From Escherichia coli (GTDB lineage Bacteria > Pseudomonadota > Gammaproteobacteria > Enterobacterales > Enterobacteriaceae): a stretch of DNA of 64,000 nucleotides. The notes beneath the pieces were generated by a model. The model had not been told where the DNA came from and searched no databases. It saw only the letters and a program-made list of their open reading frames with translations. The stretch is taken from NCBI RefSeq assembly GCF_044324785.1, contig NZ_CP172127.1. One strand, written 5' to 3'. The position numbers and the translations under genes were made by a program. Of this stretch, positions 46,820 to 47,478 are shown piece by piece (position 1 is the first letter of the stretch; every line of letters begins with the position of its first letter).

Positions 46820-47107
46820 CAGTTATATCTCCTCCGATGACGGAAATCGGGGGAGATAATATAAATTCCTGCTTATTGTATTTCTTCATACTACCTGAAC
46901 AGGTCGTTAATCAGAATTGCGAGCCTGTACCACAACCTGCACGAAACCACTGCAACAGCTATTGAAAAGCCGGAATGTACTCTTTATTGCAAACATTTCA
47001 GGGATGAAGTGAAGATGAATTGAGACGTAATATCCACACCAAGCCGGCGTTATCCGGTGAGGCGCAATGTTGCGGGGGCTTTATCCCTGGTGGCATTGGT
47101 TGCTGGA

Positions 47108-47176
47108 AAGAGAAAACCCCCGCACGTTGAGAGGTAAAACCTGACAACAAAACGGGGGCTAATCTTGAAACCAGAC
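47108..47176 (-). ncRNA. rdlA: Rdl antisense RNA (antitoxin of the ldr/rdl type I module)
   Basis: Minus-strand sequence GTCTGGTTTCAAGATTAGCCCCCGTTTTGTTGTCAGG…CGTGCGGGGGTTTTCTC matches Rdl as recalled, with terminal hairpin CCCCCG…CGGGGG plus U-tract; ends approximate. Confidence 0.5.
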
Positions 47177-47223
47177 ACTTCAAGAATAGCCGCAAAATGT
47201 TGTCATTACAACAAGGCGGCTAT

Positions 47224-47331
47224 ATGACGCTCGCGCAGTTTGCCGTGATTTTCTGGCACGACCTGGCAGCACCGATCCTGGCGGGAATTATTACCGCAGC
47301 GATTGTCGGCTGGTGGCGTAACCGGAAGTAA
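47224..47331 (+). CDS. ldrA: Ldr type I toxin (35-aa hydrophobic peptide)
   Basis: ATG 47224 to TAA 47329 gives MTLAQFAVIFWHDLAAPILAGIITAAIVGWWRNRK; below the length cut-off of the supplied ORF track. Confidence 0.8.
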   Translation: MTLAQFAVIFWHDLAAPILAGIITAAIVGWWRNRK

Positions 47332-47478
47332 GGCGAAAACGGGCGTCAGGCTGCCGTGATGGCAATATGCGCCCGAAACCGGCCGCAGGGGTAACAGCCT
47401 GCGGCCTTTTTTGTATCCGGCCCCATGAAAAAAGCCTTAACGCAGAACGCTAAAGCTTTAGTTTTCAAGCAAAAAAGA

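What the first reader, a model, noticed from the sequence alone, without database searches (positions are those of the whole stretch)
46900..47340. Single-copy Ldr/Rdl type I toxin-antitoxin module between chaA and kdsA, invisible to the ORF track
A 35-aa hydrophobic ORF (MTLAQFAVIFWHDLAAPILAGIITAAIVGWWRNRK, 47224..47331) lies in the chaA-kdsA spacer, with an antisense Rdl-like RNA upstream on the other strand (about 47108..47176). Ldr peptides are membrane-active toxins repressed by Rdl. From memory, K-12 carries three tandem copies at this locus; here there is one, consistent with copy-number change by unequal recombination or with assembly collapse.
Basis: partly seen in the sequence, partly recalled or inferred. 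Interest (0 to 1): 0.55.

Follow-up and report, generated by a model that had tools for sequence, protein, structure and literature searches.

The report
Single-copy Ldr/Rdl toxin-antitoxin module
This is an ordinary, intact copy of the well-known E. coli Ldr/Rdl type I toxin-antitoxin module, and having one copy here instead of K-12's three is a common strain-to-strain difference seen in about a quarter of complete E. coli genomes.

Summary
A 35-codon ORF at 47224..47331 (+) matches Pfam Ldr_toxin over its full length (E 7e-24). An RdlD-family antisense RNA lies at 47176..47111 (-), scoring 91.8 bits against a gathering threshold of 50. Both sit in the 659-bp spacer between chaA and kdsA. The segment is 98% identical to K-12 LDR-C. 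Its left flank matches LDR-C and its right flank matches LDR-A. The window holds no second copy or remnant.

One copy is not unusual. 1324 of 5426 complete E. coli genomes (24%) have exactly this arrangement. Genomes with an identical ChaA protein carry one or two copies, and other Escherichia species also vary.

Assembly collapse cannot be excluded, because there are no reads. This exact haplotype was recovered only from draft contigs. The window also has one tRNA-Tyr gene where relatives with identical flanks have two. However, other draft assemblies routinely resolve two- and three-copy LDR arrays.

The toxin is a membrane peptide, and Rdl pairs with the ldr 5' leader. How Rdl blocks translation is still unresolved in the literature.

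Verdict: already known, low interest.

The parts
45719..46819 (+). chaA (Na+/K+:H+ antiporter), the left flank of the spacer
   Evidence: ORF. The exact 366-aa product is known in public assemblies. Synteny with annotated chaA is shown.
46940..47414 (.). Core of the long direct repeat (LDR) unit, 475 bp, shared with every K-12 copy
   Evidence: BLAST against the K-12 spacer. Spacer positions 121-595 align to all three K-12 units (95.7-98%). The unique left flank matches only LDR-C and the unique right flank only LDR-A.
47028..47033 (+). Inferred -10 hexamer (TAATAT) of the ldr mRNA promoter
   Evidence: Inference only. The hexamer keeps the form TAnnAT in 16 diverged copies (TAGTAT, TAGAAT, TAATAT). 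It sits about 7 nt before the point where conservation between the A/B/C-type and D-type copies begins. The consensus scan found no full promoter.
47041..47412 (+). Inferred ldr mRNA, about 372 nt, with a 183-nt 5' leader
   Evidence: The 5' end is inferred from the -10 hexamer. The 3' end is set by the terminator. The predicted fold is much more stable than shuffled sequence (z -6.8).
47067..47144 (+). Candidate leader ORF 1 (ATG, 25 aa)
   Evidence: It is 25 aa in 14 of 16 copies, but its frame is broken by G-run length changes in K-12 LDR-C and one other copy. Its substitutions keep pairing in the predicted RNA hairpin. It is probably not coding.
47111..47176 (-). Rdl antisense RNA (antitoxin)
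   Evidence: Rfam RF01813, 91.8 bits, full length, the same score as K-12 rdlC. It folds as a stem-loop, -26.7 kcal/mol, z -5.1. A terminator-like stem plus U-run lies at 47135..47116.
47183..47211 (-). Inferred rdl promoter: -35 TTGTAA (47211..47206), 17-nt spacer, -10 TATTCT (47188..47183), start 7 nt downstream at 47176
   Evidence: Read directly from the sequence. Both hexamers are invariant in 16 copies. The match is 8 of 12 to consensus, below the scan threshold of 9.
47165..47227 (+). Candidate leader ORF 2 (TTG, 20 aa). Its stop overlaps the ldr start as ATGA, and its start and the preceding G-run lie inside the Rdl target.
   Evidence: In all 16 copies this frame stays open up to the ldr start, as an ATGA overlap in 7 copies and in frame with ldr in 9.
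47186..47223 (+). Predicted hairpin that sequesters the ldr Shine-Dalgarno sequence (arms 47186..47193 and 47216..47223)
   Evidence: RNAalifold consensus of 16 copies: 8 pairs, 7 invariant and one with a G-C to G-U change. This is a prediction only, and the single-sequence MFE draws a different long-range pairing.
47224..47331 (+). ldr toxin gene, 35 aa
   Evidence: Pfam Ldr_toxin PF13940, E 7.3e-24, positions 1-35 of 35. It matches the solved LdrD chain 5LBJ at E 8.5e-10. The exact peptide is on at least 990 public contigs named as Ldr family.
47381..47412 (+). Intrinsic terminator of the ldr mRNA
   Evidence: A 9-bp stem (8 G-C pairs) plus a T-run, conserved in all 16 copies with compensatory changes at its top pair.
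47479..48333 (-). kdsA, the right flank of the spacer
   Evidence: ORF. Annotated kdsA is in the same position.

Best explanation
This is one intact ldr/rdl type I toxin-antitoxin module of the LdrA/B/C group, in its usual chromosomal place between chaA and kdsA.

The plus strand gives a stable mRNA of about 370 nt. It has a long structured leader and encodes a 35-aa peptide with one transmembrane helix and a basic C-terminus. When overproduced, such peptides insert into the inner membrane, collapse ATP and membrane potential, and stop growth (literature on LdrA and LdrD).

The minus strand gives the 66-nt Rdl RNA from its own promoter. That promoter lies under the ldr ribosome-binding region. 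Rdl is perfectly complementary to leader positions 47111..47176, 48 nt upstream of the ldr AUG. It therefore cannot occlude the ldr ribosome site directly.

The inferred mechanism is as follows. The ldr Shine-Dalgarno sequence is held in a conserved local hairpin. It is opened by ribosomes that start upstream, in a leader frame whose start at 47165 lies inside the Rdl target. Rdl pairing blocks that entry, and the duplex is cut by RNase III.

The single copy is most likely a real allele, produced by unequal crossing-over among the 535-bp repeats or retained from a one-copy ancestor. Shown here: identity of both components, their geometry, intactness, single copy in the window, and the population frequency of single copy. 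Inferred: both promoters, mRNA ends, the hairpin, the leader-translation step, and that the copy is expressed and toxic.
For: Family identity rests on Pfam Ldr_toxin, full length, E 7.3e-24; Rfam rdlD at 91.8 bits, full length; 98% DNA identity to K-12 LDR-C; and a match to the solved LdrD structure 5LBJ.

The peptide differs from LdrA/C by M8V and S29G, and from LdrB by M8V and T9I. It keeps the PxxxG motif, the tryptophans and the RNRK tail that Fozo 2010 (PMC2887945) and Weaver 2020 (PMC7472228) name as family signatures.

The module looks intact: the Rdl stem-loop and terminator are present, as is the ldr terminator, and both rdl promoter hexamers are invariant in 16 copies.

For the single copy, the window has one rdl hit, one 20-mer hit and no repeat of the unit. 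In the population, 1324 of 5426 complete genomes have the same colinear arrangement, including S88 and chromosome-scale contigs L007, L029, L049 and L054. Among genomes with the identical ChaA protein, both one and two copies occur. A divergent Escherichia (L011) has one copy at this locus and another (L013) has two. Draft assemblies elsewhere resolve two- and three-copy arrays.

For the mechanism, the literature supplies the following: toxicity of LdrD and its rescue by RdlD, and the ldrX leader-ORF proposal (PMC4147584, PMC8167048); the LdrA ATP drop and membrane location (PMC8309996, PMC7472228); and RNase III cleavage of the ldrD/rdlD duplex (PMC7373196).
Against: No expression or toxicity data exist for this copy. 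The consensus promoter scan found nothing above its threshold on either strand. NCBIfam returned no family.

The 2021 review states that how RdlD inhibits ldrD translation is unknown (PMC8309996), so the leader-translation step is a hypothesis. The candidate leader frame is not conserved as a separate ORF: it fuses in frame with ldr in 9 of 16 copies. The single-sequence MFE does not contain the local Shine-Dalgarno hairpin. The aligned copies are too similar to give real covariation support.

On copy number, this exact LDR haplotype was recovered only from draft contigs of 117-241 kb (L009, L038, L044, L046). The nearest chromosome-scale relative (L045) has two copies.
Confidence: 0.82

Rival explanations
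1. The genome really has two or more tandem LDR copies here, and the single copy is an assembly collapse. A collapsed path would look exactly like an unequal-crossover product, with the left flank of the first unit and the right flank of the last.
For: The window is 100.000% identical over 23.7 kb to a 241-kb draft contig (L044). Its LDR haplotype was found only in draft contigs. The window has one tRNA-Tyr, whereas relatives with 100%-identical flanks have two (L022, L023, L026 and the 4.9-Mb contig L045). That could mean small tandem repeats are collapsed in this assembly. L045 has two LDR copies. Most genomes with the identical ChaA protein have two.
Against: 24% of complete genomes are truly single-copy. 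Single tRNA-Tyr also occurs in 196 complete genomes, so that difference can be real. L045 is a different haplotype across exactly this region: 58 of its 62 differences from the window fall in 42.6-47.4 kb. It therefore does not speak for the window's allele. Draft contigs of 38-725 kb elsewhere carry resolved two- and three-copy arrays, because the copies differ by 2-5%. About 25 independent assemblies that carry the window's YchO variant were grouped with the one shown, which has a single ldr gene. That grouping might not separate a contig with a second ldr gene.
Confidence: 0.15
2. The module is a decaying remnant: present in sequence but no longer expressed or toxic.
For: No promoter passes the consensus scan. 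The peptide carries M8V relative to all K-12 copies. The literature notes that some chromosomal type I loci have degenerated (PMC2887945).
Against: The ORF is intact and the HMM match is full length. Rdl scores the same as K-12 rdlC. Both terminators are present. The promoter hexamers are the same ones found in the expressed K-12 copies. The exact peptide recurs on at least 990 contigs, including inside multi-copy arrays. That pattern is not expected for a dead allele.
Confidence: 0.03

Closest known systems
ldrC/rdlC, ldrB/rdlB and ldrA/rdlA of E. coli K-12 (LDR-A, -B, -C; Kawano et al. 2002)
   Same: Same locus between chaA and kdsA, same orientation and same unit. Spacer positions 1-595 are 98.0% identical to LDR-C. 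No difference from rdlC is visible over the Rdl region in the alignments, and the Rfam score is the same. The 35-aa peptide differs at 2 residues from each K-12 paralogue.
   Different: One unit here instead of three. The peptide has V8, with I9 as in LdrA/C and G29 as in LdrB. The inferred -10 is TAATAT instead of TAGTAT.
ldrD/rdlD of E. coli K-12 (the experimentally characterised member; solved structure 5LBJ)
   Same: Same architecture: 35-aa toxin, 66-nt antisense RNA against the 5' leader, and 5' and 3' UTR blocks that are nearly invariant. It is a single copy, like the window. The peptide aligns end to end.
   Different: Different locus (bcsG-yhjV). The alignment shows 19 of 35 residues identical. 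A 1-nt insertion puts the upstream frame in frame with ldrD. The Rdl apical loop sequence differs.
hok/sok (mok) of plasmid R1 and E. coli chromosomes
   Same: The literature describes ldr/rdl as regulated like hok/sok: a long structured leader, an antisense RNA that does not cover the toxin ribosome site, and a proposed coupling to an upstream ORF (PMC4147584, PMC8167048). The ldr leader gives a sub-threshold hit to the Rfam 'sok' model on the mRNA strand (30.5 bits against a gathering score of 59).
   Different: The toxin family is unrelated. The coupling ORF is not proven for ldr, and the candidate frame is variable. The Rfam score is well below the gathering threshold, so the module is not a member.
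Fst/RNAI-RNAII (par of pAD1) in Gram-positive bacteria
   Same: The toxins belong to one Fst/Ldr superfamily: a transmembrane helix, a conserved tryptophan, a charged C-terminus and a PxxxG motif (PMC2887945, PMC7472228). All of these are present in the window peptide.
   Different: In Fst-type systems the antisense RNA is encoded opposite the 3' end of the toxin gene. Here it is opposite the 5' leader (PMC2887945).

Membership tests
Ldr toxin (Pfam PF13940, Fst/Ldr superfamily) | Peptide of about 35 aa that matches the Ldr_toxin profile over its full length | tested here: met
   E 7.3e-24, 84 bits, query 1-35 against model 1-35 of 35. The identical gene product carries PF13940 in public data.
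Ldr toxin (Pfam PF13940, Fst/Ldr superfamily) | Hydrophobic helix with a PxxxG motif, a conserved tryptophan after the helix, and a basic C-terminal cluster | tested here: met
   Read from the sequence: P17-I-L-A-G21, W30 W31, R32-N-R-K35. The signature is as defined in PMC2887945 and PMC7472228.
Ldr toxin (Pfam PF13940, Fst/Ldr superfamily) | A curated NCBIfam model names it | tested here: inconclusive
   No NCBIfam family at E <= 0.01. NCBI nevertheless names the exact sequence 'type I toxin-antitoxin system toxin Ldr family protein', so the library probably lacks an HMM for it.
Ldr toxin (Pfam PF13940, Fst/Ldr superfamily) | Growth arrest or killing on overexpression | not testable with these tools
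   Known for LdrA and LdrD only (PMC8309996, PMC4147584).
Rdl antitoxin RNA (Rfam RF01813) | Covariance-model score above the gathering threshold, over the full length | tested here: met
   91.8 bits against 50, model positions 1-66 of 66.
Rdl antitoxin RNA (Rfam RF01813) | Encoded in cis, antisense to the ldr 5' leader, without overlapping the toxin Shine-Dalgarno sequence or start codon | tested here: met
   Rdl is at 47111..47176 (-) and the ldr ATG is at 47224 (+), a 47-nt gap.
Rdl antitoxin RNA (Rfam RF01813) | Own promoter and terminator giving an RNA of about 60-66 nt | tested here: inconclusive
   A terminator-like stem plus U-run was found. The promoter hexamers TTGTAA-17-TATTCT are well placed and invariant in 16 copies, but match only 8 of 12, below the scan cut-off. 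No expression data.
LDR (long direct repeat) element of E. coli | A unit of about 530 bp homologous to K-12 LDR-A to -D that contains both genes | tested here: met
   95.7-98.0% identity to the three K-12 units.
LDR (long direct repeat) element of E. coli | Tandem repetition at the chaA-kdsA locus | tested here: not met
   One copy only. Repetition is not required of a member: LDR-D is single in K-12 and 24% of complete genomes have one copy here.
hok/sok-type control (leader-ORF coupling) | An upstream ORF whose translation is needed for toxin translation and whose start is blocked by the antisense RNA | tested here: inconclusive
   A frame starting at TTG 47165, inside the Rdl target, stays open up to the ldr start in all 16 copies, but as an ATGA overlap in 7 and in frame in 9. 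Function is untested, and the review PMC8309996 calls the mechanism unknown.

The most novel reading that the evidence does not exclude
The comparison of 16 natural LDR copies hints at how Rdl works, which the literature still lists as unknown. In every copy the reading frame that opens at the TTG inside the Rdl target runs without a stop through a conserved hairpin that sequesters the Shine-Dalgarno sequence, up to the ldr start. Indels switch that frame between an ATGA overlap and an in-frame fusion. This would fit control by ribosome transit through the hairpin, independent of frame, rather than by a defined 'LdrX' peptide. A second possibility is that the 1-to-3-or-more copy polymorphism (24% single) is a selected dosage trait.
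Probability: 0.1. Interest if true: 0.4.

Novelty: already known. Interest (0 to 1): 0.08.

Why it matters
It matters little beyond correct annotation. The module is a textbook chromosomal type I toxin-antitoxin system that ORF-length filters miss, so flagging it is good practice. The useful by-products are a number and a caution. About 24% of complete E. coli genomes carry a single LDR at chaA-kdsA, and about 4% carry a single tRNA-Tyr gene at the tyrTV locus, so K-12's three ldr copies and two tRNA-Tyr genes are not the species norm. In draft assemblies, copy number at both tandem loci should be checked against read depth before it is interpreted.

Tried and rejected
1. Consensus promoter scan of the spacer: nothing reached the threshold on either strand. 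Both promoters are therefore inferred from position and conservation only.

2. NCBIfam scan of the peptide: no family.

3. Scan of one genome per species (GTDB) with an invariant 20-mer. It returned only nine stretches and no entry identifiable as the E. coli species representative. It cannot be used to claim absence anywhere. It was useful only for four divergent Escherichia genomes.

4. I first read as showing that a 5.14-Mb contig (L007) is 99.98% identical to the window. That was wrong. The file held three records, and the near-identical one is the 118-kb draft contig L009, while L007 is 97.5% identical.

5. Attempts to obtain a chromosome-scale assembly of the window's own haplotype, by exact look-ups of YchO, NarG and a 72-aa ORF. 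The look-ups report two blocks with contigs over 1 Mb that carry the same YchO, but those contigs are hidden among the 'similar places'. The only long contig shown (L045) has two LDR copies but a different haplotype from 42.6 to 47.4 kb. None of ten further loci is more than 99% identical to the window here.

6. Test of whether the window's LDR is a mosaic of the two copies found in close relatives. It is not: it differs at 11 or more sites from every copy compared. That neither supports nor excludes collapse.

7. Long-range 5'-3' pairing in the single-sequence fold, resembling hok fold-back inhibition. The 16-sequence consensus did not reproduce it, so I dropped it.

8. The candidate leader ORFs starting at GTG 47057 and ATG 47067 are not credible as conserved coding sequences.

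Full report
**What is in the sequence.** The spacer between the stop codon of chaA (46819) and the stop codon of kdsA (47479, minus strand) is 659 bp long. On the plus strand, an ATG at 47224 opens a 35-codon frame that ends with TAA at 47329..47331. The mechanical ORF, counted from the first in-frame start after a stop, is 44 aa (47197..47331). That is below the usual 60-aa cut-off, which explains why an ORF track would not show it. On the minus strand, the Rfam covariance model for the RdlD antitoxin matches 47176..47111 over all 66 positions, at 91.8 bits against a gathering score of 50. This is the only such hit in the 64-kb window.

**Identity of the two components.** The peptide matches Pfam Ldr_toxin (PF13940) end to end with E 7.3e-24. 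It also matches the solved LdrD chain 5LBJ with E 8.5e-10. The exact sequence is held on at least 990 public contigs under the name 'type I toxin-antitoxin system toxin Ldr family protein'. It differs from K-12 LdrA/LdrC by M8V and S29G, and from LdrB by M8V and T9I. It keeps the family signatures described in the literature: a PxxxG motif in the helix, the tryptophans after it, and the basic tail (PMC2887945, PMC7472228). NCBIfam gave no hit, probably because that library holds no HMM for this family. The Rdl sequence scores the same as K-12 rdlC, and no difference from it is visible in the alignments. It folds into the expected stem-loop, -26.7 kcal/mol, z -5.1, followed by a U-run.

**Relation to K-12.** MG1655 carries ldrA/rdlA, ldrB/rdlB and ldrC/rdlC in the same spacer, 535 bp apart. 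Spacer positions 1-595 are 98.0% identical to the chaA-proximal unit (LDR-C). Positions 121-659 are 95.7% identical to the kdsA-proximal unit (LDR-A). The 475-bp core (window 46940..47414) aligns to all three units. The window therefore has the left flank of LDR-C and the right flank of LDR-A around one core. That is what unequal crossing-over between units would leave, and equally what a one-copy ancestor would look like. No second copy or fragment is present.

**How common is a single copy?** I used a 959-bp query that spans 150 bp of chaA, the spacer and 150 bp of kdsA. With it, multi-copy genomes can cover at most 78% of the query in one place. 1324 of 5426 complete E. coli genomes (24%) have a place that covers at least 80%, which means one unit between the two genes, in some genomes with an IS200C insertion next to it. 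An evenly spaced sample of 60 records gave the same picture: about 12 with one copy, 19 with two, and 28 with three or more. Single-copy genomes range from 94% to 99% identity to the window and carry different Ldr peptides. Genomes with the very same ChaA protein have one or two copies. In more distant Escherichia, one genome has one copy at chaA-kdsA and another has two. The LDR-D locus (bcsG-yhjV) likewise has one or two. Copy number here changes often and in both directions. This agrees with the 'lineage-specific duplications and a few losses' inferred by Fozo et al. (PMC2887945).

**Is the single copy real in this particular sequence?** This cannot be settled without reads, and two things call for caution.
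- The window is 100.000% identical over 23.7 kb to a 241-kb draft contig (L044). Its exact LDR haplotype was found only in draft contigs of 117-241 kb (L009, L038, L044, L046). An earlier reading, that a 5.14-Mb contig was nearly identical, was my mistake and is corrected.
- The window has one tRNA-Tyr gene. Relatives with 100%-identical flanks have two, 119 bp apart, including the 4.9-Mb contig L023/L045. That long contig also has two LDR copies.

Against collapse:
- L045 is a different haplotype across exactly this region. 58 of its 62 differences from the window lie between 42.6 and 47.4 kb, so it says nothing about the window's allele.
- Single tRNA-Tyr also occurs in 196 complete genomes.
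- Draft contigs from other strains carry cleanly resolved two- and three-copy LDR arrays, because the units differ by 2-5%.
- About 25 independent assemblies that carry the window's YchO variant were grouped with the one shown, which has a single ldr gene. That grouping might not separate a contig with a second ldr gene.

I put the chance of collapse at about 15%.

**How it most likely works.** From the literature: overproduced LdrD kills E. coli, and co-expressed RdlD prevents this (PMC4147584). LdrA sits in the inner membrane and drops ATP within minutes (PMC8309996, PMC7472228). The ldrD/rdlD duplex is cut by RNase III (PMC7373196). How Rdl blocks translation is 'currently unknown' (PMC8309996). 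The standing proposal is hok/mok-like coupling to a leader ORF called ldrX (PMC4147584, PMC8167048).

From the sequence here:
- Rdl starts at 47176, and its target ends 47 nt before the ldr AUG, so direct occlusion of the ldr ribosome site is excluded.
- The rdl promoter hexamers (TTGTAA, 17 nt, TATTCT) lie under the ldr ribosome-binding region and are invariant in 16 copies. They fall one match short of the scan threshold.
- Across those 16 copies from K-12, the window and other Escherichia, the 5' and 3' untranslated blocks are more conserved than the coding sequence.
- The consensus fold places the ldr Shine-Dalgarno sequence in an 8-bp hairpin (47186..47193 with 47216..47223) directly before the AUG.
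- A frame opening at TTG 47165 has its start and preceding G-run inside the Rdl target. It stays open to the ldr start in all 16 copies, ending in an ATGA overlap in 7 (including the window) and running in frame into ldr in 9.

This fits a model in which upstream ribosomes open the hairpin and Rdl denies them entry. It is an inference, for three reasons: the copies are too alike for covariation statistics, the single-sequence fold differs, and a 20-codon open frame is not rare by chance. The two other candidate leader ORFs (GTG 47057, ATG 47067) are not conserved as coding frames.

**Comparison with known systems, and verdict.** The module is a member of the Ldr/Rdl family by every sequence criterion that can be tested here. 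It is closest to K-12 ldrC/rdlC. It works like hok/sok according to the literature, but it is not a member of that family: the Rfam 'sok' hit on the leader is 30.5 bits against a gathering score of 59. It shares a toxin superfamily with Fst, whose antisense RNA lies at the other end of the gene (PMC2887945). Nothing about it is new. The one-copy state is a frequent natural allele. The finding is correct, well interpreted and ordinary.

Noticed in passing
window 30717..30801 (tRNA-Tyr) and 30848..30979 (RtT): The window has one tRNA-Tyr(GUA) gene and one RtT unit at the locus where K-12 has tyrT plus tyrV. Assemblies with 100%-identical flanks (L022, L023, L026, L045) have two tRNA genes 119 bp apart, while L044 and 22 similar draft contigs have one. 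Only 196 of 5426 complete genomes (3.6%) have one. This is either a recent unequal crossover or a collapsed tandem in draft assemblies.
   Followed up: partly
window 42600..47400 compared with L045 (GCA_964055045.1): The 4.9-Mb relative differs from the window at only 3 sites between 30.8 and 42.6 kb but at 58 between 42.6 and 47.4 kb (ychO to ldr). In the LDR its differences match those of strain N3. This looks like a recombination patch that carries the ychO-chaA-ldr haplotype, and its copy number, between lineages.
   Followed up: partly
window 47074..47226 (+): The ldr mRNA leader gives a sub-threshold match to the Rfam 'sok' model on the mRNA-sense strand (30.5 bits, gathering score 59, E 2e-4 for the 2.5 kb searched). 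The model's terminal AUG aligns to the ldr AUG. This may be chance, or a faint echo of the hok-like leader organisation described in reviews.
   Followed up: no
alignment A2 of 16 LDR copies; window 47055..47160 and 47340..47375: Between the LdrA/B/C type and the LdrD type, the untranslated blocks are almost invariant while the coding region has diverged (19 of 35 residues identical between the window peptide and LdrD). This points to strong RNA-level constraint on both UTRs.
   Followed up: partly
L004 7538..7996 (E. coli WP2-W18-ESBL-10 and many similar genomes): In the complete genomes most similar to the window around this locus (98.8-99.1%), an IS200C element sits between the single ldr gene and kdsA.
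   Followed up: no
L017 (NZ_JABWSY010000055.1, 503 bp, 'Bacillus sp. EB106-08-02-XG196'): A 503-bp contig with coverage 0.66 in a Bacillus assembly carries a full Rdl (90.4 bits) and the LDR 20-mer. It is almost certainly Escherichia contamination of that assembly.
   Followed up: no
L008 2352..3473 (ENA ERZ28757652 contig_4): This locus has three Rdl genes but only two ldr genes called. The third unit still encodes the same 35-aa peptide, so gene counts from annotation understate the copy number.
   Followed up: partly
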